Positions 4,523-64,000 of a stretch of 64,000 bases of DNA are shown one piece after another; the first letter of the stretch is position 1, and every line of letters begins with the position of its first letter. The notes under the pieces were generated by a model. It saw only the letters and a program-made list of their open reading frames with translations, searched no databases and was not told the origin of the DNA. Position numbers and translations under genes: made by a program. Source of the stretch: Giesbergeria sp. Lineage in GTDB: Bacteria; Pseudomonadota; Gammaproteobacteria; Burkholderiales; Burkholderiaceae_C. Location of the stretch: positions 417,033 through 481,032 of the forward strand of contig JAUCCA010000012.1 of the NCBI GenBank assembly GCA_034676525.1, written 5' to 3'.

Positions 4523-4983
4523 CAGAACAAGCAACCTATCAAAGCGGGCTGCGCCCAGCGCTGGTTTGCCTGGCCGCCATGGTGCTGCTGTCCGGCTGCG
4601 GCGAAAGCAAAGACAGCGGGGCTGGCCGTACCGTGTCGAAATCCGCCAAACCAAGCATGGTTGCGGCGGCTGCAGGGCCCACTACAGAGCACCTGGGCCT
4701 CACACCAGCCTACTTGGAAGGCGACTGGTGCAGCACCCATATTCAGTTCCCCAACACGCGATCCACGGAAAACCGCAACCACCGGTTTTCTGCAGACGGC
4801 AGCTTCGCGGCGCAAACAGACCCCAAATCGGAAATGAAGCCGGGGCTGGTTTACCGCTACAGGCCGGATGGAAAGATCGGTATGGACAGTTTGCTCTACC
4901 AAGTGAAGTCGGTGCAACCAGACGATTTTGTTTTGCGCATCGCCGTCAACGACCTTCACTTTCACCGGGGCGCTTGCAAATGA
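4519..4983 (+). CDS. Lipoprotein, lipocalin-like (paralogue 2)
   Basis: Lipobox LLSGC; ATGA overlap with the previous gene; clear paralogy to 4058-4522. Confidence 0.8.
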   Translation: MTEQATYQSGLRPALVCLAAMVLLSGCGESKDSGAGRTVSKSAKPSMVAAAAGPTTEHLGLTPAYLEGDWCSTHIQFPNTRSTENRNHRFSADGSFAAQTDPKSEMKPGLVYRYRPDGKIGMDSLLYQVKSVQPDDFVLRIAVNDLHFHRGACK

Positions 4984-20199: not shown

Positions 20200-20213
20200 A
20201 CACTCTGTTTTTG

Positions 20214-20255
20214 GTAGCTTATCGCGCTTATTTGATAAGGGCTAGAGCCTTAAAA
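20214..20255 (+). repeat. ~43-bp palindromic REP-like repeat, copy 1 (degenerate)
   Basis: GTAGCTTATCGCGCTTATTTGATAAGGGCTAGAGCC; matches copies at 32068, 35272, 46722 and 49642. Confidence 0.7.
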
Positions 20256-31800: not shown

Positions 31801-32071
31801 CGGCGTTGAGTTCAGGCAGGCCATCATCCACTCGGCCATCACCCGCGCGCAGCCCATCGTGCTCACGGGCCTGGCCGCCATGCTGGGGGCGTTCTTCATT
31901 CTGGACGACCCGATTTTCAACGGCCTGGCGATTTCGCTGATCTTCGGCATCGCCGTCTCCACGCTCCTCACGCTGGTGGTCATTCCCACCCTGTACTACG
32001 CGGCGTACCGCAAACGTCTGCACCGGCTGTTGCCGCCGGCGGCAGACGTGGAAACGCTATCCCATTCATAG
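28808..32071 (+). CDS. RND efflux transporter permease (AcrB/AcrD/AcrF family)
   Basis: PREEEPQI, SIGILVDDAIVVVEN, GIIVRNSILLVDF and RAQPIVLT. Confidence 0.93.
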   Translation: MQEQKHKHMGISGRIAAFFQGAQITPLLALVALLLGAFAVLVTPREEEPQINVTMANVLIPFPGASVRDVEQMVAIPAEQVLSQITGAEHVMSLSHPGMAILTVQFKVGVPRTEALVRLYDTVNSNADWLPKGLGVMDPIVKPKGIDDVPIVSLTLFSDQQETGAFDLERVAHSVEADLKRVPGTREVTTINGPGRAVMVELDPARMAGMGVTVADLRMALQSANLGLPVGELLGGNRSVAIESGPFLRDASEVADLVVGVRGGKPVFLREVAQVRDGAPPPSRYVWHGTAGEKAAEFPAVTIAITKKPGENAIDVANAVMSRVEALKNTVIPAAVQVAETRNYGATANDKAQKLIQKLLFATASVVALVFIALGRREAAIVGTAVVLTLTATLFASWAWGFTLNRVSLFALIFSIGILVDDAIVVVENIHRHQKLEPGKTLAQIIPGAVDEVGGPTILATFTVIAALLPMAFVSGLMGPYMSPIPINASMGMLLSLAIAFVVTPWLARLWMKPHHGSDAEGHAAPSGMARRITPLFTRIFTPLLDEKRGGRNRGLLGLGVALLIAISVAMPATGLVLLKMLPFDNKSEFQVVVDMPAGTPVERTAALMHELGAYLATVPEVTDYQAYAGTAAPINFNGLVRQYYLRASGEVGDIQVNLVDKHDRHDQSHAIATRVRPPLQTIAKRFGGNVKVVEVPPGPPVLSPIVAEIYGPEAEGRRKVAKAVRSVFDKAEGLVDVDDSSIADAPRTVLLVDRRKAAMLGVPQQAIVTTLRAGLAGEAVAYLHDQSKYPAAATLQLPPEQQGNLAALLQLTVRSASGALVPIRELVNVSDQLREQPIHHKDLLPVNYVLADMAGKVDSPLYGMFEMRGDIAQLAMPDGGKLEEYFISQPQDAWRGYALKWDGEWQITYETFRDMGAAYAVGLILIYLLVVAQFGSYLTPLIIMAPIPLTIIGVMPGHALLGAQYTATSMIGMIALAGIIVRNSILLVDFINLQVRSGVEFRQAIIHSAITRAQPIVLTGLAAMLGAFFILDDPIFNGLAISLIFGIAVSTLLTLVVIPTLYYAAYRKRLHRLLPPAADVETLSHS

Positions 32072-32110
32072 CTACTGGCGCTTACCAAATAAGCGCTAAA
32101 GCACCATTTG
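32068..32110 (+). repeat. REP-like repeat, copy 2 (supplies the stop codon of the RND gene)
   Basis: ATAGCTACTGGCGCTTACCAAATAAGCGCTAAAGC; the TAG at 32069-32071 ends the ORF. Confidence 0.8.
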
Positions 32111-32120
32111 ATTGATAAAA

Positions 32121-35244: not shown

Positions 35245-35271
35245 CGCGCAACCGCCGTCACTCTCAAATCA

Positions 35272-35314
35272 ATAGCTGCTAGCGATTACCCTATAAGCGC
35301 TAGAGGCCATTTTT
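35272..35314 (+). repeat. REP-like repeat, copy 3
   Basis: ATAGCTGCTAGCGATTACCCTATAAGCGCTAGAGGCC. Confidence 0.8.
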
Positions 35315-35335
35315 ACCCTAAATCTGGAGATTCCC

Positions 35336-46707: not shown

Positions 46708-46721
46708 AAACGCAAAAAACG

Positions 46722-46764
46722 ATAGCTGCTTGCGCAATATTGACGGGCGTTAGAGGCCAGTTTT
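46722..46764 (+). repeat. REP-like repeat, copy 4 (degenerate)
   Basis: ATAGCTGCTTGCGCAATATTGACGGGCGTTAGAGGCC. Confidence 0.7.
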
Positions 46765-46849
46765 ATTCGAAATTTGAAACTAGCCAACGTCCTCTGCTGC
46801 GCAGTGGTCGAATGCCATCGCAGCGCACGGCTGCAGCGCATCCCGCACT

Positions 46850-48663: not shown

Positions 48664-49782
48664 ATGGCTGCCATGGAAAGTGCCCTCTCCGAACTCATAG
48701 CCCGCGTAAGCGACGCAAGCGCCCAGGCCACACCGCTGCAGATTTGCGGCGGCGGCAGCAAAGCTTTTCTCGACCAGACCACACCGCGCGGCGAGCTGCT
48801 TAGCACCCGCGGCATCACTGGCATCGTCAGTTACGAGCCCAGCGAACTGGTTGTCACTGCGCGCGCTGGCACTCCGCTGGCAGAGCTGGAGGCCGCCTTG
48901 ACTGAGCAGAACCAAACCCTGCCGTTTGAACCACCACACTTTGGGCCCGGGGCCACCGTGGGTGGCATGGTGGCCGCAGGGCTGTCGGGCCCGGCACGCG
49001 CCAGCGTGGGTGCGGTGCGCGACTTCATGCTGGGGGTCACCATCGTCAACGGGCGGGGCGAGCTCCTTGTGTTCGGTGGGCAGGTGATGAAGAACGTCGC
49101 CGGCTACGACGTCTCGCGCCTGATGGCGGGCAGCTGGGGGACGCTGGGGGTGATCACCGAGGTCAGCCTGAAGGTGCTGCCAGTGGCCCCCGCCGAGGCG
49201 ACGCTGGCTTTTGAATGCAGCCAAGCCGAGGCGCTCGACCGACTTAATGCCTGGGGCGGGCAGCCCCTGCCGCTCAATGCCAGTTGCTGGGTTGAAGACG
49301 AAGGCGCGGGGCGTTTGTACCTGCGCCTGCGTGGCGCTGCTGCCGCTGTTGAGGCGGCTTGCCGCAGCATGGGGGGCGAGCGCAAGCCCAACGCCGAGGT
49401 GGCGGCCGATTGGCAGGCCTGCCGCGAACAGCGCCTACCGTGGTTTGCCGCACGTGCGCCGCAGCATGCGCTGTGGCGCCTTTCGGTGCCGCAGTCGGCG
49501 CCGGAGTTGCAGCTCCCTGCCGGCGTGGCGCCGCCGCTCGTCGAATGGCACGGTGGTCTGCGCTGGGTGCAGGCGGGCAGGGAGCACGGCCCCGCCCTGC
49601 AGAAGCTGGCCCAGGATGTGGGCGGAACCGCTTCTCTATTCATAGCTGATAGCGCTTATACAGAAAGCGCTGCAGGCCAATTTGACCAAATATCGCCTGC
49701 GCTGAGCCAGATCCATACGCGGCTGCGCCAAGCCTTCGATCCGGCAGGCATCTTCAATCCCGGCCGCATGGGCGGGTGCTAA
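48664..49782 (+). CDS. glcE: Glycolate oxidase FAD-binding subunit
   Basis: YEPSELVVTARAGTPL, FGGQVMKNVAGYDVSRL and FDPAGIFNPGR. Confidence 0.95.
   Translation: MAAMESALSELIARVSDASAQATPLQICGGGSKAFLDQTTPRGELLSTRGITGIVSYEPSELVVTARAGTPLAELEAALTEQNQTLPFEPPHFGPGATVGGMVAAGLSGPARASVGAVRDFMLGVTIVNGRGELLVFGGQVMKNVAGYDVSRLMAGSWGTLGVITEVSLKVLPVAPAEATLAFECSQAEALDRLNAWGGQPLPLNASCWVEDEGAGRLYLRLRGAAAAVEAACRSMGGERKPNAEVAADWQACREQRLPWFAARAPQHALWRLSVPQSAPELQLPAGVAPPLVEWHGGLRWVQAGREHGPALQKLAQDVGGTASLFIADSAYTESAAGQFDQISPALSQIHTRLRQAFDPAGIFNPGRMGGC
49642..49684 (+). repeat. REP-like repeat, copy 5, in frame inside glcE
   Basis: ATAGCTGATAGCGCTTATACAGAAAGCGCTGCAGGCCAATTTG encodes IADSAYTESAAGQF. Confidence 0.78.
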
Positions 49783-55311: not shown

Positions 55312-55758
55312 TCAGCGGCGCACGTCGGCGTCGAACTCAGCGCGCGAGACCACGGCGTCGTGGTTGGCATCGACCGCCTGCATGCGTTCAGCCAAACCGG
55401 GCACGGTTTTCAGCTCGGCGGCGCTGAGCTTGCCGTCCCGATTGACATCGGCTCGGTCGAAGGCATCTTTTGCTGAAGCCGACGGCATGGTCGCCGTCAC
55501 TTCGGGCCGTACATCGGGGTTGTGGGCTGCGCCAGCCCCTGCGGCCTTGTTGGTTGGGCCGAATGCGGGCGAGGTGGTCATTGGGGGCGGCGCCTTTTTG
55601 TGCGTCATCGCCGGTGGTTGATTGGCGGGGTTCGCTGCAGCAGGTGTGCTGTCGGCGGCATGGACGTGCAGGGCAACGCCTGCACCCAAGCTGATGGCGG
55701 CGAAAAGCAAGACGCTTCGGGTGTCGAAGAATTGATTCGAACGGATGCTGGTACGCAT
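55312..55758 (-). CDS. Secreted EF-hand protein
   Basis: Signal peptide; DVNRDGKLSAAE and DANHDAVVSRAE loops. Confidence 0.8.
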   Translation of the reverse strand: MRTSIRSNQFFDTRSVLLFAAISLGAGVALHVHAADSTPAAANPANQPPAMTHKKAPPPMTTSPAFGPTNKAAGAGAAHNPDVRPEVTATMPSASAKDAFDRADVNRDGKLSAAELKTVPGLAERMQAVDANHDAVVSRAEFDADVRR

Positions 55759-55900
55759 GAACTTCCTTTGCGGTGAGTGAAACACCGCTGCATTGCAACA
55801 AACCCGCGCCGTGCACGCCAGCAGTTTTGCCTTTGGTTGCATGCGCCCACATTTGGGAGCGTGATGTAACCTTGTTCCATCTTGAACGCAGGAGAGAACC

Positions 55901-56467
55901 ATGGGCAAGCGCCTCACACAAATCGCCACGCGCACCGGAGACGACGGCACGACTGGCCTTGGCGACAACACGCGCGTGCCGAAAAACCACCTGCGCGTGC
56001 AGGCGATGGGCGATGTGGACGAACTCAACTCACACATCGGGCTGCTGCTGTGCGAGCCTTTGCCAGCCGAAGTGTCCGAGCTGCTCACCGATGTGCAGCA
56101 GCAGCTCTTTAACTTGGGCGGCGAGCTGTCGATTCCAGGCTTTGAGCTGCTCAAAGATGCTGCCGTGCTGCAGCTCGACCAAGGGCTCGCCACCCACAAC
56201 GCCGCGCTGCCGCGCTTGCAGGAGTTCATCCTGCCGGGCGGCACCCGCGCTGCGGCGCAGGCGCACATCTGCCGCACCGTCGCACGCCGTGCCGAGCGCG
56301 CGGTGGTGGCGCTGGGTAATGAGGAAGCAGTGCGCGAGGCACCGCGGCACTACCTCAACCGACTGTCGGATTTGATGTTTGTCCTCGCACGCGTGCTCAA
56401 CCGCATTGACGGCGGCGACGACGTGTACTGGAAGAGCGAAAAGCTCGCCCGCAGCGATGCTGCTTAA
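55901..56467 (+). CDS. PduO-type cob(I)alamin adenosyltransferase
   Basis: TRTGDDGTT, GDVDELNS, FILPGG and LNRLSDLMF. Confidence 0.93.
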   Translation: MGKRLTQIATRTGDDGTTGLGDNTRVPKNHLRVQAMGDVDELNSHIGLLLCEPLPAEVSELLTDVQQQLFNLGGELSIPGFELLKDAAVLQLDQGLATHNAALPRLQEFILPGGTRAAAQAHICRTVARRAERAVVALGNEEAVREAPRHYLNRLSDLMFVLARVLNRIDGGDDVYWKSEKLARSDAA

Positions 56468-57619: not shown

Positions 57620-59305
57620 TCAGGTGGCCCCCGCCATCTCTTGCGCCGCCTGCGCGCCTTCAGACGAATGCCCCACCTGCACCGGCTTGAAGCTGTGCGC
57701 GCTGGCCAGGGGCCAGTAGGTGCGAAACACGTTGTGCTGCCCATCCAGCGCGCCCAGCAAGGCGCCCGGCTTCACCTGCATCACCAGGTTGCTCAGCAGC
57801 CGCACCTCGGTATCCGATATGCGCCGCACGATGTGGTGCGCGGTGATCTGGCGCGGGTGGTCCAGCCCGGCGGCCTGCACCAGTTCCTGCAGCGCGTGCA
57901 GCGTGCTGCGGTGAAAGTTGTGCACCCGCTCGGCCTTGTCGGGCACCACCAGCGCTTGCTGGCGCAACGGGTCTTGGGTGGTCACGCCCGTGGGGCACTT
58001 GCCGGTGTGGCAGGACTGCGCCTGAATGCAGCCCAGCGCCATCATGAAACCGCGCCCCGCATTGCACCAGTCGGCGCCCAGCGCCATCATGCGGGCCAGG
58101 TCAAACGCGGATATCACCTTGCCGGCGCAGCCCAGCTTGATGCGGCCCCGCAGGCCCACGCCCACCAGCGTGTTGTGCACCAGCAGCAGCCCTTCCTGCA
58201 AGGGTGCGCCCACATGGTCGATGAACTCCACCGGGGCCGCGCCGGTGCCGCCCTCGGCCCCGTCCACCACGATGAAGTCGGGGGTAATGCCGGTCTCTTG
58301 CATGGCCTTGACGATGGCAAACCACTCCCATGGGTGGCCCAGGCAGAACTTGAAGCCAGTGGGTTTGCCGCCCGATAGGTCGCGCAGCCGGGCAATGAAA
58401 TGCATCAGCTCCACCGGCGTGGAAAACGCGCTGTGCGACGACGGCGAAATGCAGTCCACACCCATGGGCACGCCGCGCGCCGCCGCAATCTCGGCCGTCA
58501 CCTTGGGCGCCGGCAGCACGCCGCCGTGGCCGGGCTTGGCGCCCTGGCTCAGCTTGATTTCGATCATCTTGACCTGCGGGTCGGTGGCGTTCTTGGTGAA
58601 CCGCTCGGCGTTGAAGCTGCCGTCGTCGTTGCGGCAACCAAAGTAGCCCGAGCCAATTTCCCAGATCAGCGCGCCGCCATGCTCGCGGTGGTACTGCGAG
58701 ATGGAGCCCTCGCCCGTGTCGTGCGCAAAGTTGCCCGCCTTGGCGCCCTTGTTCAGCGCCAGGATGGCGTTGGCCGACAGCGCGCCAAAGCTCATGGCCG
58801 AAATGCTGAACACGCTGGCGTCGTACGGCTGCGCGCAGCGCTCACCAATCGTGATGCGAAAGTCGTGGTTGGCCAGCACCGTGGGCTGCATGGAATGGTT
58901 GATCCATTCGTACCCGGCGTCCGACACAGTGAGCTGCGTGCCAAACGGCCGCACATCGGTATCGCCCTTGGCGCGCTGGTACACCAGCGAGCGCTGCGCG
59001 CGCGAAAACGGCGTCGCTTCCGAGTCGCCCTCAATGAAGTACTAGCGCATTTCCGGGCGGATGAATTCAAGCAAAAACCGCAAATGCCCAATCACCGGGT
59101 AGTTGCGCAAGATGGCGTGTCGCGTTTGCCGCAGGTCGTGCACGCCCACTGCAACCAGAGCGGCAAACACCACAACCGACAGCCACGCCAGCCAGAACGT
59201 CGGCGCGGCGATCAATCCCGCAATGCTGGCCAGCAGGGCCAGGGCGCACACGACAAAGGCGCTGTAGCGCAGCGGGGGGCGGGTAGGTTTCTGGACGGTG
59301 GGAAT
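57620..59305 (-). pseudogene. FMN-binding glutamate synthase family protein with an internal amber stop and an ATT start
   Basis: HAILRNYPVIGHLRF...IRPEMR*YFIE with TAG at 59044-59042 where Gln is expected; EIKLSQGAKPGHGG; CHTGKCPTGV. AAGGAG RBS is followed 6 nt later by ATT (59305), not ATG. Confidence 0.85.
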
Positions 59306-59445
59306 AGCAGGCTCCTTTTATAGGTTCAAGGTATCACAAGGCGCCAGATTTGCAGTGGTGCGGAGCGTCGTTTGCAACGCTTCTGCGCATGCACGACAAC
59401 ATTCCACGTTTTACGCGCATGTGTCCAAACGATTACAATTGCGGC

Positions 59446-59739
59446 ATGCTGTCTATAAAGCCACTACCAGGATTCACCCAGTGGTTGGAGGCCTTGCCAG
59501 ACGCATCCGTGCGGGGCGTTGTGCTCGCCCGTATCAAGCGTCTGTCACTTGGTTTGATGGGCGACGTGTCGCCTGTAGGTGAAGGCGTATCTGAGATGCG
59601 AATCCATGTAGGGGCTGGTTGGCGCGTTTACTTTGTGCAGCGCGGCAAAGAAGTCATTGTTTTGCTGGCCGGTGGCTCAAAACGTACGCAAGTTGCGGAT
59701 ATCAAACGTGCCAAAACACTGGCCAAATTACTCGATTGA
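59446..59739 (+). CDS. RelE/ParE-superfamily toxin (addiction module killer type)
   Basis: RIKRL..G.MGDVSPVGEGVSEMRIHVGAGWRVYF and LLAGGSK. Confidence 0.9.
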   Translation: MLSIKPLPGFTQWLEALPDASVRGVVLARIKRLSLGLMGDVSPVGEGVSEMRIHVGAGWRVYFVQRGKEVIVLLAGGSKRTQVADIKRAKTLAKLLD

Positions 59740-59753
59740 TGAAAGAAAAAATC

Positions 59754-60059
59754 ATGGCTTCACGCATCAAAGTTGACGAACTCCCCGAATTCGATGCTGC
59801 GCCGTATTTGGGAGACGAAGCCACCATTGCCGCCTATTTGACCGATATTTTGGAGGCGCAGGACCCTGGCCTGCTCGCTGCAGCGTTAGGCGACATTGCC
59901 AGAGCCCGTGGCATGAGCGAGATAGCAAAAGCCTCCGGCATTACGCGTGAAGCTCTGTACAAGGCATTGCGTGCTGATGCGCAACCCAGGTTTGACACCA
60001 TTAGCCGTGTTTGTTCAGCTTTAGGTGTTCGCTTGGTAGCGCAACCGATGAACGTTTGA
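59754..60059 (+). CDS. HTH antitoxin (addiction module antidote type)
   Basis: FDAAPYL, ALGDIARARGMSEIA..SGITREALYKAL and PRFDT. Alternative start at 59739. Confidence 0.9.
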   Translation: MASRIKVDELPEFDAAPYLGDEATIAAYLTDILEAQDPGLLAAALGDIARARGMSEIAKASGITREALYKALRADAQPRFDTISRVCSALGVRLVAQPMNV

Positions 60060-60120
60060 GCGCCGAATGCGCCAGTTGCCGAATGACGTACTCTCGATTA
60101 AGAGGCTACGCCCTGCTGAT

Positions 60121-61652
60121 TTACGCCTCCTGCGCCACCGGAAACTTCCGCGGTGTGAGCAGCACCACCGCCAGCACCACCACCGCTGCCACCGCCACGC
60201 CCACATAAATGTGGTGGGTCGCGGTGAACATGGCCTGCCTCAGATACTGATCGGCTGCCTCGTTCAACGCATGCCCATGCAAGGCGCCAATCACCGCGTC
60301 GACATCACGCGGCAGCGTGGCGCTCAGTGCAGCCGGCGCGCGCGCCAATTCGCTGGCTATTGCAGCATTGAAGATCGCGCCGAACAAGGCTGCGCCCAAA
60401 GTCTGGCCCAGGTAGCGCGAGAACATGTTGGCGCCTGTGGCCACGCCGCGTTGCTGCCATGGCACTGCCGATTGCACGCCCACCAACAGCGGCGTGGAAA
60501 GCAGGCCAAAGCCGGCGCCCAGCACGGCTTGGTCCAGCGCCACCAGCCACACCGAACCGGGGTAAGGCATCAGCAAAAAACCAAACGCAGCGAGCACCAC
60601 CAGCACGGCGCCCGCCAGCGCGGTATCACGAAACCCGATGCGCAAATACAGGTCCCCGAAAACGACGACGCCAGCGGCCAGCCAATGCTCATGCAGGCCA
60701 GCATCAGGCCGGCACTGATGGCACCCAGGCCCAGTACCGACTGACCAAAGGTCGGCAGGTAGGTGTTGGGGCCCATCATCACCAGCCCCATGCCGATCAT
60801 GGCCAGGTTGGAACACAGCAGCACCGGTTGTCCCCAGAGCCAGCCGGGCAGCACCGGTTCGGCGGCGCGGCGCTCCACCCACACCGTCACCGCTATCAGC
60901 AACGCCGCCACTGCAAAAATGCCCACGCTTGGTGCGGACCACCACGGCCACGCCTGGCCCCCCTGCAGCAAGCCCAGCAGCAATGCGCCCACCGCAAACA
61001 GCATCGGCCCGGCGCCGGCATAGTCAATGCGGTGGCGGCGGGGTTCAACTTGCTCGTGCAAAAAGCGGGTGATCAAGAAAATGGCCACGGCGCCAATCGG
61101 CAGGTTGATCAGAAAGATCCAGCGCCACGAGGCATATTCGGCAAACGCACCCCCCAGCGTGGGCCCGAGGATCGCCGCCACGCCCCACACACTCGACAAC
61201 CAGCCCTGCACCCTGGCCCGCTCCCGCACCGAATACAAGTCACCGGCCAGCGTGTTGACGGTCGCCATGATGGCGCCCGCGCCCAGCCCCTGCAGGCCGC
61301 GAAAGGCAATCAACGCCACCATGTTCCAAGCCAGAGCCGACGCTACCGAACCGATCAGAAAAATCACCATACCGACAACCAGCACCGGCTTGCGGCCGAA
61401 CAGGTCGGCCAGCTTGCCGTAGATCGGAATCGTCACCGTCTGCGCCAGCAGGTAGATCGAAAACACCCAGCTGAACAGCGCAAAGCCGCCCAGATCGCCC
61501 ACGATCTGCGGAATGGCGGTGGAAACGATGGTGGTGTCCATGGCGGCCAGCATGATCGTGAGCATCAGCGCGGCCAGAATCCAGCCGCGCTGGGCCGGGT
61601 CAGGGGCGGCGTTGGGCGCTGGCGGCGCCGCCGGATTGTTGGTGGGAGTCAT
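60121..61652 (-). pseudogene. DHA2/EmrB-like 14-TM MFS transporter with a 1-nt frameshift near 60652-60657
   Basis: MDTTIVSTAIP, YGKLADLFGRK and WRWIFLINLPIG. After WPLASSFSG the protein continues in another frame (LYLRIGFRDTA...). Confidence 0.82.
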
Positions 61653-61754
61653 GGCAACAAGTCTTGAAATGGTTTTAGGAGCAAGCCATCAGTTCCAACC
61701 ATAGTGACCACATTCATGCGCCTTGACTGCACGATGTTGGGATGGGCGCGTGAT

Positions 61755-61786
61755 GAGCAGGTTAAGCCGCTCGCCGAAGGCGGGTT
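61755..61786 (-). other. Distal half of an attC site split by the IS; R' box missing
   Basis: Minus strand AACC-CGCCTTCGGCG-AGC-GGCTTAA-CCTGCTC, then no GTTRRRY. Confidence 0.6.
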
Positions 61787-61854
61787 TGACCTGCCCCCCA
61801 TAACCCGTACCGGCCATTCTTCCAAGAAGTCCATCAACCCGGAGAATGATGGAC

Positions 61855-62121
61855 ATGAGAACAAGCAAATTCAGCGAAGAGCAAATCATCGGTTTTCTCA
61901 GGCAAGCTGAGGTCGGAATGCCGATCAAAGAGATCGGACGCAAACACGGCTTCAGCGATGCCTCGTTCTACAAGTGGCGCTCCAAGTTCGGTGGCATGGA
62001 TGCCTCTGAGGCCAAACGGCTTCGGGAGCTGGAACTGGAGAACGGCAAGCTCAAGCGGCTGCTGGCCGAGGCCCACCTGGACATCCACGCGCTCAAAAGC
62101 GTCTTTGGCACAAAGCGCTAG
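61855..62121 (+). CDS. IS3 transposase OrfA (HTH)
   Basis: SKFSEEQII...RKHGFSDASFYKWRSKFGGM...LELENGKLKRLLAE. Confidence 0.93.
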   Translation: MRTSKFSEEQIIGFLRQAEVGMPIKEIGRKHGFSDASFYKWRSKFGGMDASEAKRLRELELENGKLKRLLAEAHLDIHALKSVFGTKR

Positions 62122-62999
62122 CCCCACAAGTCAAACGCGAGGCTGTCGGACGCATGGTGGGCGAACACCACCTGTCTGAACGCCACGCCTGCGCCCTTGT
62201 GGGGCTAAGCCGAGATACCTACCGCCATGTGAGTCACACCAGTGCGCTCAATGTGGAGTTGCGCGAAAAAATCGTCCGAACTGCCCATGAGCGCAGGCGC
62301 TGGGGCTACCGAATGATCCATGACGTTCTGCGCCCGCAATACCCTGACATCAATCACAAGCGGGTGTACCGCATCTACACGGCCGAAGGCCTGTCCATCA
62401 GGAAACGCAAGAAGGCCAAGCGCATTGGTGTTCGTGTGCCACTGGTGGCGGCCTTGGCAGTCAATCAGACCTGGAGCATGGACTTTGTGAGCGATGCGAT
62501 CGCCAGGCCGGGTGCGGTAGCGCGGCGTATCAAATGCCTCACGGTGGCAGACGACTTCAGTCATGAATGCGTAGACATCACCGCAGACTTTGGCATTGGT
62601 GGTGCCTACGTCACCCGTCTATTGGATCGAGCCGCCATGTTTCGGGGCTACCCCAAGGCGGTCAGAACCGACAACGGACCGGAGTTCACTTGCCGGGCCT
62701 TCATGACGTGGGCACAGAAACACGGCATCAAACACATCCTGATCGAGCCCGGTAGTCCGACTCAGAACGCCTACATCGAGAGCTTCAACGGCACGTTCCG
62801 AGATGAATGCCTCGACGAGAACTGGTTTGAATCCCTGGAGCAGGCCCGCCAGATCATCGCCAAATGGAGAACCGACTACAACGAAATCAGACCCCACAGC
62901 AGTTGCGGGCGTGCGCCGCCTGCAACCTTCGCCGCATTGAATCGCCGGTTAACCGGCGATTCAATGCTACAGAGCTCGACCAACGCAGGGATCAGTTAG
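62112..62999 (+). CDS. IS3 transposase OrfB (DDE), joined by -1 frameshift at A_AAG 62112-62115
   Basis: WSMDF, DNGPEF and QNAYIESFNGTFRDECL. Confidence 0.92.
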   Translation, partial: KALAPQVKREAVGRMVGEHHLSERHACALVGLSRDTYRHVSHTSALNVELREKIVRTAHERRRWGYRMIHDVLRPQYPDINHKRVYRIYTAEGLSIRKRKKAKRIGVRVPLVAALAVNQTWSMDFVSDAIARPGAVARRIKCLTVADDFSHECVDITADFGIGGAYVTRLLDRAAMFRGYPKAVRTDNGPEFTCRAFMTWAQKHGIKHILIEPGSPTQNAYIESFNGTFRDECLDENWFESLEQARQIIAKWRTDYNEIRPHSSCGRAPPATFAALNRRLTGDSMLQSSTNAGIS

Positions 63000-63056
63000 C
63001 CTTGCAAACCTCGGACTTCCGGAATTTCGATTGGTACGGCGGTAGGGGGCAGGTCA

Positions 63057-63081
63057 GGTTGGCTTGAGCGGCCAGTTAGAC
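63057..63081 (-). other. Proximal half of the split attC (R'' and L'')
   Basis: Minus strand GTCTAAC-TGGCCGC-TCAAGCC-AACC, then the IS. Confidence 0.7.
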
Positions 63082-63274
63082 ACAGCGCCAACTGTCGGGC
63101 GACTGCGCAGAGCCAAAATGCTATGAAAAAGAAAGCTTCTGGCGCACGGACAGCAAGCGATAGAGCCTGCTTTGCGCATACATCTGCACCCACTATGGGA
63201 ATCGCCAGAGCGCTGGCAGTGGTGAGGGGAAAGCAAAGGCAAGAAGCAAGCTGTAGTGCGAGTTACTTCGGGAA

Positions 63275-63335
63275 GGCTGAAGAACAAAGTGAGCGGTTTG
63301 CCGTAGGACAGTCCGCTTGACTGAAGCGGTCAGGC
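63275..63335 (-). other. Degenerate attC (61 bp) overlapping the stop codon of the PIN-like gene
   Basis: GCCTGAC...TCAAGCGG...CCGCTCA-8 nt-TTCAGCC; both R boxes deviate from consensus. Confidence 0.55.
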
Positions 63336-63935
63336 GTCAGACGGTGGAAGGGTGTAAGCCACTTTGGTTCCATTGACTGTGATGTAACCCTTGGCCTCCA
63401 GCTCATTCAACAGTGCGGCTAGTTCTTGCTCCGTAAGCTGCTTCTGAAAGATCGCAGTGATGGTGCTGGAGAGAGTTTTAAGCGTTCGCGGCTTCGATGC
63501 ACCACGTTGCTGGAGGTTTGTCACGATGACAGCCAGCTTTTCGGGCGGCGACTTCGTGGTAGCAACCTTTACAAGTGGAATTTCACTTACATCGCGAGAG
63601 CGTGCTGCAAAAATCTTCTTTGTCTTTAGGTGTTGAATCAGCGGATCGAAACCCGTGTCTTTCGAGATGACATGAAAGTACGCGGTTGGATCGGCAGCGG
63701 CCAATTGCCCAATGTAATAGGCGATATGAAAGTCCAGTGCGTTCGATCCGTTACCAGATATCTTGATGTAATCCGCTTTACTGCCCATCTTCTGCAGTGC
63801 TGCAGCGGCCTCAAACGTTACTTTCGTTTGACTCGCGCCGACGAAGACAATGACTTTGAAGTGCTCGGCATCGAGCACAGAAAGTGCCTCTGGCTGAACG
63901 TTCTCGTAGTCGATGAGCACGTAGTTAGTTCTCAA
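63330..63935 (-). CDS. PIN/NYN-like domain protein with C-terminal HTH-like domain (integron cassette gene)
   Basis: VLIDYENV, GSNALDFHIAYYIG and ISKDTGFD acidic motifs; TTG start about 24 nt after a GTT core; more AT-rich than the flanks. Confidence 0.82.
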   Translation of the reverse strand: MRTNYVLIDYENVQPEALSVLDAEHFKVIVFVGASQTKVTFEAAAALQKMGSKADYIKISGNGSNALDFHIAYYIGQLAAADPTAYFHVISKDTGFDPLIQHLKTKKIFAARSRDVSEIPLVKVATTKSPPEKLAVIVTNLQQRGASKPRTLKTLSSTITAIFQKQLTEQELAALLNELEAKGYITVNGTKVAYTLPPSDA

Positions 63936-63958
63936 AAGCGTTCCCCACTAAAAATGAC

Positions 63959-64000
63959 TTCTAACGGACAAGTTCAGTGGGCGGCGTAGCCGATCCACTG
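63959..64000 (-). other. attC site, truncated by the window end
   Basis: Minus strand CAGTGG-loop-CCACTGA, 8-nt spacer, GTTAGAA core. Confidence 0.75.

What the first reader, a model, noticed from the sequence alone, without database searches (positions are those of the whole stretch)
61755..64000. Distal end of an integron cassette array
Seen on the minus strand: attC (64000-63959), PIN-like gene, degenerate attC (63335-63275), a ~190-bp segment, then an attC split by the IS. All are in one orientation, and the ORF stop lies inside an R''-like box. Established: this is the cassette layout of integrons. Inference: more cassettes and perhaps intI lie to the right of the window; otherwise it is a CALIN. 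The sites decay toward this end.
Basis: partly seen in the sequence, partly recalled or inferred. Interest (0 to 1): 0.62.

Follow-up and report, generated by a model that had tools for sequence, protein, structure and literature searches.

The report
Decayed integron cassette array without integrase
This is the far end of a small chromosomal integron gene-cassette array that has lost its integrase gene, has been hit by insertion sequences and is decaying in place; it is a well-documented example of a known kind of element, not a new one.

Summary
I built an attC covariance model from 33 sites next to integron integrases in this genus. It gives 15 hits in the 4.07 Mb genome. Most lie in cassette arrays beside intI genes, and two are at this locus: site A (window 63959-64016, 58 bits) and site B (63275-63335, 33 bits). 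Site C matches an attC profile once the 1270-bp IS3-family element (61787-63056, 4-bp duplication) is removed. It lacks an R' box.

Right of the window lies only one more cassette (247 bp, no gene). It is interrupted by a second IS3 element, which itself carries an inverted second copy of the first IS. Next comes an attI site identical in 19 of 19 bases to the attI of an intact integron elsewhere in this genome. No intI follows, only the position of its start codon and then a thioesterase gene. The element is therefore a CALIN that kept its attI.

Two metagenome contigs show the IS-free state. One has an extra 357-bp cassette inserted exactly at the G|TT crossover of site A. The decay of sites B and C is shared with those contigs, so it is old. 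This is an ordinary kind of element, well resolved.

The parts
61747..61782 (-). attC site C, 3' part. It holds the inner stem, L' (GCGGCTTAA) and a decayed R' (ATCACGC in place of GTTRRRY). Bases 61783-61786 are the second copy of the IS target duplication.
   Evidence: With the IS and one duplicate copy removed, the attC profile matches positions 1-46 of 59 (E 2.5e-6); R' is not aligned. Contig L046 carries the same sequence uninterrupted, with the same ATCACGC.
61787..63056 (+). ISa copy 1, an IS3-family insertion sequence of 1270 bp. orfA is 61846-62121 and orfB is 62154-62999. The terminal repeats begin TGACCTGCCCCC, and the 4-bp target duplication is GGTT.
   Evidence: Ends and duplication were found. 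Pfam gives HTH_Tnp_1 for orfA and rve/rve_3 for orfB. NCBIfam NF033516 (IS3 family transposase) scores 223 bits against a cut-off of 160. Two further copies lie on this contig.
63057..63081 (-). attC site C, 5' part. It holds R'' GTCTAAC (63081-63075), a 5-nt spacer and L'' GCTCAAGCC, and ends in the AACC that was duplicated on insertion.
   Evidence: The sequence resembles attC sites next to intI at C8:287639-287699 and in relatives G010 and G020.
63082..63274 (-). Body of cassette 3 (193 nt, no supported gene). It is about 70% identical to cassette 1. It contains one copy of the genome's 65-nt palindromic repeat at 63118-63174.
   Evidence: BLAST gives 69.8% identity over 162 nt to the cassette upstream of site A. 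The repeat profile hits at E 1.5e-5. A codon-position test on the seven better-conserved family members, without cassette 3 itself, gave 264/269/306 differences.
63275..63335 (-). attC site B, degenerate. R'' is GCCTGAC and contains the PIN7 stop codon. L''/L' are largely kept. R' is TTCAGCC, so the GTT core is lost.
   Evidence: R1 scores 32.9 bits, E 2.4e-4 genome-wide. The bottom strand does not fold canonically. It is homologous to intact sites such as L026 4123-4182 and to a similarly decayed copy in L047.
63330..63935 (-). Cassette 2 gene: a 201-aa PIN7-domain protein (TTG start). It has an N-terminal PIN-like alpha/beta domain and a C-terminal helical domain ending in a beta hairpin. 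The whole cassette is 63964-63281 (684 bp).
   Evidence: PF18475 matches at E 2.3e-33. More than 7900 homologues were found, many 70-99% identical and of the same length. D9, E11, D68, D93 and D97 are invariant in 29 homologues. The AlphaFold model has pLDDT 86.
63959..64000 (-). attC site A, the part inside the window; the full site runs to window-equivalent 64016. It is intact. The layout is R'' TGCTAAC, a 5-nt spacer, L'' with one extra base, a loop, L', a 6-nt spacer and R' GTTAGAA (63965-63959).
   Evidence: R1 scores 58 bits, E 6.8e-11 genome-wide. The bottom strand takes the canonical fold, z -2.45. Homology with L047 breaks exactly at G|TT.

Best explanation
The stretch is the distal half of a three-cassette chromosomal integron array that has lost its integrase gene. 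It is a CALIN that still has its attI site.

Read on the minus strand from high to low coordinates, the locus is:
1. a thioesterase gene;
2. a 28-nt conserved block that carries the intI start codon in intact integrons;
3. 77 nt of spacer;
4. the attI core GTCGTCTAAATCTAG|TTAG;
5. cassette 1 (247 bp, no gene), interrupted 24 nt in by the IS3-family element ISb, which itself carries a second, inverted copy of ISa;
6. attC site A, intact;
7. cassette 2 (684 bp, PIN7-domain protein);
8. attC site B, with both R boxes mutated;
9. cassette 3 (about 259 bp, a paralogue of cassette 1);
10. attC site C, with R' decayed and ISa inserted in its inner stem;
11. an MFS transporter gene with a frameshift.

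Shown:
- the identity, orientation and order of the sites;
- each IS insertion is simple and in place, because each has its own 4-bp target duplication;
- there is no intI on the contig;
- site A has served as a crossover point since this lineage diverged from the one behind contig L047.

Inferred:
- The cassettes were captured by IntI-mediated attI x attC recombination.
- intI was later lost, either by deletion ending at its start codon or by separation of the array from it.
- Without excision, the distal attC sites drifted. The PIN7 cassette and cassette 3 are now fused to each other and to the chromosome.
- Only attI and site A could still be substrates, in trans, for the integrase of the intact integron at C8:288099, whose attI core is identical.
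For: - attC sites and specificity. Model R1 gives 15 genome-wide hits. Nine of the ten non-locus hits with E<1e-3 lie in the arrays beside intI genes. Site A scores 58 bits and site B 32.9 bits.
- Site C. The profile matches it after IS removal.
- Orientation. True sites score 50-73 bits on the cassette strand and 15-26 bits on the other strand.
- attI. The core is identical in 19 of 19 bases to the sequence between intI and the first cassette at C8:288099. It is near-identical in relatives G021 and G010. In all four loci it sits exactly 77 nt from a conserved block containing the intI ATG.
- No intI. The TIGR02249 search finds four full copies elsewhere and none on C12; tblastn agrees.
- IS insertions. 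ISa1 has duplication GGTT, ISa2 has CGTA and ISb has TTGG. All are IS3 family.
- IS-free relatives. Contig L046 (87% identical) runs uninterrupted across site C, where ISa sits in C12. Contig L047 (91% identical) also lacks the IS but has site C deleted.
- Cassette gain or loss. L047 matches C12 at 54 of 58 bases up to the G of site A's R' and 12 of 40 after it. Identity resumes at 52 of 60 after a second attC 357 bp on.
- Mobility of the PIN7 cassette. In four contexts (C12, L047, L046, L043) it starts at the same TT(A/T)GA behind four different attC sites.
- Island. In six relatives the thioesterase gene is followed directly by the gene at window 55700-56460. About 10.5 kb including this array is therefore extra here.
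Against: - IntegronFinder itself could not be run, and Rfam holds no attC family.
- R1 was trained on attC sites of this genus, including the same sub-families. It therefore partly detects homology rather than structure alone.
- Sites B and C fail the folding test.
- attI is identified by homology and position only.
- No intI remnant remains, so a former integrase at this spot is inferred, not seen. The 77-nt spacer is at chance identity (18-24 of 77) to the three other loci, which share 37-46 of 77 with each other. The platform is thus a distant relative of them.
- Expression of the cassettes was not tested, and no promoter-like site was found.
Confidence: 0.9

Rival explanations
1. The array belongs to a complete, active integron whose intI lies further along the contig or was separated by a misassembly at the repeated IS copies.
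For: The genome has four intact intI genes, and integrons are common in the genus, present in 25 of 41 genomes. Two identical inverted ISa copies 1.9 kb apart could mislead an assembler.
Against: No intI-like sequence is anywhere on the 577-kb contig. attI abuts the thioesterase gene within about 150 nt. Each IS copy has matching 4-bp duplications. The halves of site C and of the ISb transposase gene fit across the insertions. That would not hold for a chimeric join.
Confidence: 0.03
2. The sites are not attC sites but chance palindromes or copies of the genome's abundant 65-nt palindromic repeat.
For: The genome holds about 567 copies of a palindromic repeat, and two of them lie inside cassettes 1 and 3.
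Against: The repeat copies (63118-63174 and 64054-64112) do not overlap the attC sites. The attC model hits none of the other repeat copies, and most of its hits lie in the arrays beside intI genes. Site A has the canonical 5-nt and 6-nt spacers and one extra base. A cassette difference from L047 falls exactly at G|TT.
Confidence: 0.02
3. The 1.9 kb between the two inverted ISa copies is a composite transposon that brought the cassettes here as a unit.
For: Two 100% identical 1270-bp ISa copies in inverted orientation bracket part of cassette 1, site A, the PIN7 cassette, site B and most of cassette 3.
Against: Each copy is flanked by its own direct duplication, GGTT/GGTT and CGTA/CGTA. One copy interrupts site C and the other interrupts the ISb transposase gene, so both inserted separately. 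The same PIN7, site B, cassette 3 and MFS-flank order exists without any IS in L046 and L047.
Confidence: 0.04

Closest known systems
CALIN elements (clusters of attC sites lacking an integron integrase; Cury et al. 2016, PMC4889954)
   Same: It has two or more same-orientation attC sites within 4 kb and no intI within 10 kb. IS elements lie next to it, as for 38% of CALIN in that survey. No intI pseudogene is recognisable, as for 95% of them. The degenerate attC sites fit the authors' proposed 'intermediate step' towards stabilising a captured gene in the genome.
   Different: The attI site and the sequence around the former intI start codon are still present, which ties this CALIN directly to a former integron platform. 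IS-free relatives allow the order of events to be read.
Sedentary chromosomal integrons of this genus (for example C8:288099 in this genome, and relatives G021 and G010)
   Same: It has the same attI core and the same 28-nt block, 77 nt apart. It has the same short (55-61 nt) attC sub-families. The same 245-bp gene-less cassette sits first after attI.
   Different: There is no integrase. It has only three cassettes, against at least 6 in G021 and at least 15 in G010. The two distal attC sites are inactivated.
Mobile elements that target attC sites (IS1111-attC group, group IIC-attC introns); from general knowledge, not tested here
   Same: A mobile element sits inside an attC site.
   Different: ISa is an IS3-family element that makes a 4-bp duplication. 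Its other two copies are not in attC sites: one is in a transposase gene and one is at C12:275310. Nothing therefore indicates attC targeting.

Membership tests
Integron cassette array / CALIN | Two or more attC sites, same orientation, less than 4 kb apart, detected by a covariance model | tested here: met
   R1 hits site A (58 bits) and site B (32.9 bits), 624 nt apart and both on the minus strand. Site C adds a third by profile once the IS is removed. The model is my own, not IntegronFinder's.
Integron cassette array / CALIN | attC architecture: R'' (RYYYAAC), spacer, L'' with an extrahelical base, loop, L', spacer, R' (GTTRRRY), with the bottom strand folding as a hairpin | tested here: met
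   Site A meets it: 5-nt and 6-nt spacers, one bulged base and a canonical minimum-energy fold. Sites B and C do not: their R boxes are mutated and they do not take the canonical fold.
Integron cassette array / CALIN | Cassette boundaries at the G|TT crossover, shown by cassette presence or absence between relatives | tested here: met
   L047 carries an extra 357-bp cassette exactly at G|TT of site A. The PIN7 cassette starts at the same base behind four different attC sites.
Integron cassette array / CALIN | No integron integrase nearby | tested here: met
   TIGR02249 and tblastn give no hit on contig C12.
Complete integron | intI gene adjacent to attI | tested here: not met
   Only the block that holds the intI ATG in intact loci remains. 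About 40 nt beyond it lies the stop codon of a thioesterase gene.
Complete integron | attI recombination site at the head of the array | tested here: met
   This rests on homology and position only. The core is 19 of 19 identical to the C8:288099 attI. Homology among first cassettes starts at G|TTAG in four loci.
Complete integron | Pc promoter driving the cassettes | tested here: inconclusive
   The consensus scan of L009 1000-2300 (cassette 3 to part of cassette 1) found no sigma-70-like site. The attI side was not scanned and no expression data were available.
IS3 family insertion sequence (ISa, ISb) | orfA (HTH) and orfB (DDE rve) in two frames, terminal inverted repeats starting TG, and a 3-4 bp target duplication | tested here: met
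   Pfam gives HTH_Tnp_1 and rve. NF033516 scores above its cut-off. Inverted repeats and 4-bp duplications were found.
PIN7 domain protein (PF18475) | Profile match above the gathering score, and conserved acidic residues | tested here: met
   The match is 115 bits against a cut-off of 34. D9, E11, D68, D93 and D97 are invariant. The fold search gave only generic Rossmann-like matches with TM about 0.3, so structure adds nothing. Nuclease activity was not tested.

The most novel reading that the evidence does not exclude
Cassettes 1 and 3 belong to a family of ~245-bp cassettes without a supported gene. Each is built around one copy of this genus's own 65-nt palindromic repeat, which has about 567 copies in this genome. 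The family is the first cassette after attI in three genomes and is repeated in tandem in relative G021. If the repeat was part of the sequence from which the cassette was first made, rather than a later insertion into it, this family would be a rare traceable case of a cassette generated from host DNA within one lineage. It could also carry a non-coding function such as a terminator, an insulator or a small RNA.
Probability: 0.2. Interest if true: 0.55.

Novelty: new member of a known kind. Interest (0 to 1): 0.3.

Why it matters
The element itself is ordinary: integrase-less cassette clusters are common in bacterial genomes.

Its value is as a resolved example of how such clusters form and freeze. 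The attI is still in place, three IS insertions can be ordered, and the IS-free and cassette-variant states survive in related sequences. The decay of the two distal attC sites is shared between lineages. Together these illustrate the proposed path from a mobile cassette to a fixed chromosomal gene, here a widespread PIN7-domain protein of unknown role.

The small repeat-bearing cassettes give a modest lead on the open question of where cassettes come from.

Tried and rejected
- Rfam (E<=10) over 58000-64000 gave no attC family, only a chance narK match. Rfam appears to hold no attC model.
- My two regular-expression and geometry scanners were far too noisy when relaxed. Only the strict version, used beside intI genes, was kept, to harvest seed sites.
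- The ORF at L009 4918-5547 overlapping the former intI start has no Pfam hit. It lies antisense to the thioesterase gene, so I rejected it as an intI remnant.
- An open frame of about 75 codons runs through cassette 1 and its relatives. Substitutions show no third-position excess (264/269/306), and frames shift between copies, so I treat it as non-coding.
- Promoter and terminator scans of the cassettes gave nothing above shuffled controls.
- The PIN7 protein has no NCBIfam family, no PADLOC family and no meaningful PDB sequence relative. The fold search returned only generic alpha/beta folds.

Full report
**Coordinates.** The window is C12:417033-481032 of an 18-contig, 4.07-Mb genome. I fetched the next 20 kb as L009, where window position = L009 position + 61967. 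All features below are read on the minus strand, from high to low coordinates.

**The observation.**
- The ORF at 63935-63330 encodes 201 aa and matches Pfam PIN7 (PF18475) at E 2.3e-33.
- Its TGA stop lies inside GCCTGAC, a mutated R'' box.
- An IS3-family element occupies 61787-63056. It is 1270 bp long, with orfA (HTH_Tnp_1), orfB (rve) and NF033516 above its cut-off. It is flanked by a GGTT duplication.

**Building an attC model.** Rfam returned no attC family, so I made my own model.
- The genome has four full integron integrases by TIGR02249: a class 1 copy on C4 and three on C8. None is on C12.
- 25 of 41 genomes of the genus have an integron integrase match at E<=1e-60, several of them truncated.
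- I fetched the DNA upstream of these intI genes and harvested canonical sites under strict criteria.
- I aligned 33 of them, none from C12, and built covariance model R1 with the R and L stems as structure.

**What the model finds.**
- Over the whole genome R1 gives 15 hits at E<=10. Most lie in the arrays beside the four intI genes.
- Two hits are at this locus: C12:480991-481048 (site A, 58 bits, E 6.8e-11) and C12:480307-480367 (site B, 32.9 bits, E 2.4e-4).
- Two more form a second integrase-less pair at C8:1791326-1793177, and there is one weak hit on C5.
- In window coordinates, site B is exactly 63335-63275. Site A is 64016-63959, cut by the window end.
- True sites score 50-73 bits on the cassette strand and 15-26 bits on the opposite strand, so the minus-strand orientation is secure.

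**Site C.** I removed the IS and one copy of the duplication. A profile built from the same alignment then matches model positions 1-46 of 59 at E 2.5e-6 in a 4-Mb search. The R' box is not aligned and reads ATCACGC.

**Decay toward the distal end.** I folded the bottom strands as DNA.

| Site | Fold | z-score |
|---|---|---|
| A | canonical attC hairpin | -2.45 |
| B | not canonical | -1.45 |
| C | not canonical | -1.05 |
| Control attC next to intI (C8a) | canonical | -5.2 |

**Right of the window.** No further attC was found in 40 kb. The next features are:
- Cassette 1, 247 bp. ISb (IS3 family) is inserted 24 nt into it at L009 2225-4816, with a TTGG duplication.
- A second, inverted, 100% identical ISa copy at L009 2978-4247, with a CGTA duplication. 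It interrupts the ISb transposase gene.
- The sequence GTCGTCTAAATCTAGTTAG at L009 4855-4837.

The same 19 bases lie between intI and the first cassette at C8:288099. Near-identical versions occur in relatives G021 and G010. In all four loci this sequence sits exactly 77 nt from a conserved 28-nt block that contains the intI start codon in the three intact loci. Homology among first cassettes begins at G|TTAG. I read it as attI.

**No integrase.** At C12 the block is followed after about 40 nt by the stop codon of a hotdog-fold thioesterase gene. There is no integrase. The 77-nt spacer at C12 is at chance identity to the others (18-24 of 77), while those share 37-46 of 77 with each other. This is therefore not a recent copy of the C8 platform.

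**Genomic context.** In six relatives the thioesterase gene is followed directly by the homologue of window 55700-56460. About 10.5 kb, from window 56470 to window-equivalent 66970, is extra in this genome. It includes the following:
- a glutamate-synthase-like gene;
- a RelE/antitoxin pair;
- a frameshifted MFS transporter gene;
- the array.

**Related sequences.** The PIN7 protein has more than 7900 homologues. In some metagenome contigs it is a lone gene between core genes with no attC nearby. In others it is a cassette.
- L046 (87% identical) carries PIN7, site B, cassette 3, site C and the downstream flank, with site C uninterrupted. This confirms the IS-free state and shows the same decayed R'.
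- L047 (91% identical) has the same order, but site C is deleted.
- L047 is also 54 of 58 identical to C12 through site A up to the G of R'. It is unrelated (12 of 40) for the next 357 bp, which end in another attC. It is then 52 of 60 identical from TT(A/T)GAAGTCAT onward. That is a one-cassette difference placed exactly at the canonical crossover.
- In C12, L047, L046 and L043 the PIN7 cassette begins at the same base behind four different attC sites.

**Ordering the events.**
1. The decayed R boxes of sites B and C are shared with L046 and L047, so that decay predates the split of these lineages.
2. All IS insertions are specific to C12 and are later.
3. ISa entered ISb after ISb entered cassette 1.
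4. Each IS has its own duplication. The segment between the inverted ISa copies has therefore neither moved as a composite unit nor been inverted, and the assembly across the repeats is coherent.

**The small cassettes.**
- Cassettes 1 and 3 are about 70% identical to each other.
- They belong to a family found in 4 of 41 genomes of the genus. It has tandem copies in G021 and sits first after attI in G021 and G010.
- An open frame runs through them, but substitutions show no codon periodicity and the frame shifts between copies.
- Each contains one copy of a 65-nt palindromic repeat present about 567 times in this genome.

**The PIN7 protein.** The AlphaFold model (pLDDT 86) shows a five-stranded alpha/beta domain followed by helices and a beta hairpin. 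Five acidic residues are invariant. The fold search and PDB sequence search gave nothing specific. A nuclease role is inferred from the family name only.

**Comparison with what is known.** Cury et al. 2016 (PMC4889954) define CALIN as clusters of two or more attC sites without an integrase. They report that 38% have a neighbouring IS and that 95% lack a recognisable intI pseudogene. [quoted passage not shown] This locus fits that description. Its only particular feature is the retained attI.

**Limits.** IntegronFinder could not be run. My model shares sub-families with the sites it tests. attI and the former integrase are inferred.

Noticed in passing
window 63118-63174; L009 2087-2145 (window-equivalent 64054-64112); also window 20200-20250, 32054-32117, 35259-35323, 46716-46774, 49629-49692: A 65-nt palindromic repeat (consensus ..GTCAAATTGGCCTCTAGCGCTTATTCAGTAAGCGCTAGCAGCTATT..) has about 567 copies, all on the three large contigs. 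Two copies sit inside integron cassettes 1 and 3, in the same orientation as the cassettes. A further copy lies in a cassette of the C8:288099 array.
   Followed up: partly
L027 (G021:C79) 189-2132; L026 (G010:C19) 213-430; L009 1998-2220 plus 4817-4840: A family of ~245-bp cassettes without a supported gene occurs in 4 of 41 genomes of the genus. It sits in tandem (at least 5 copies) in G021 and is the first cassette after attI in three genomes. ATGGTTAAT and two other blocks are conserved. There is no codon periodicity.
   Followed up: partly
L009 4933-4960 and 4837-4855 (window-equivalent 66900-66927 and 66804-66822): The palindromic block TTTTAGGTTTGCCTAA next to the intI start and the attI core are invariant. 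They are exactly 77 nt apart in four loci, although the spacer itself is poorly conserved. At C12 both persist without intI, which hints at a spacing constraint or at continued use in trans.
   Followed up: partly
G000 C8:1791326-1793177 (+): A second pair of attC-like sites without an integrase (34.6 and 26.3 bits) brackets a 383-aa ORF. It lies about 37 kb from the nearest intI.
   Followed up: no
G000 C4:16178-18571: A class 1 integron lies at the end of an 18.7-kb contig. It has an intI1-type integrase (508 bits), a first cassette of unknown content, an aadA-type attC at 16237-16178 and a qacE-delta-like start after it. It is the only integron here with resistance-type cassettes.
   Followed up: no
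window 60121-61652 (-): The MFS transporter gene just beyond the array is split into two overlapping frames (360 aa and 276 aa). It carries a frameshift or a sequencing error.
   Followed up: no
window 59350-60059 (+): A RelE/ParE-family toxin (TIGR02683) and its antidote protein (TIGR02684) lie inside the same 10.5-kb strain-specific island. No attC was detected beside them.
   Followed up: no
G000 C12:275310-277599: A third ISa copy (99% identical) is itself interrupted by about 1 kb of other sequence.
   Followed up: no
L047 67-423: The extra 357-bp cassette in the related metagenome contig has 42% G+C, against about 58% around it, and an open frame of about 88 codons. It looks like a foreign cassette.
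   Followed up: no
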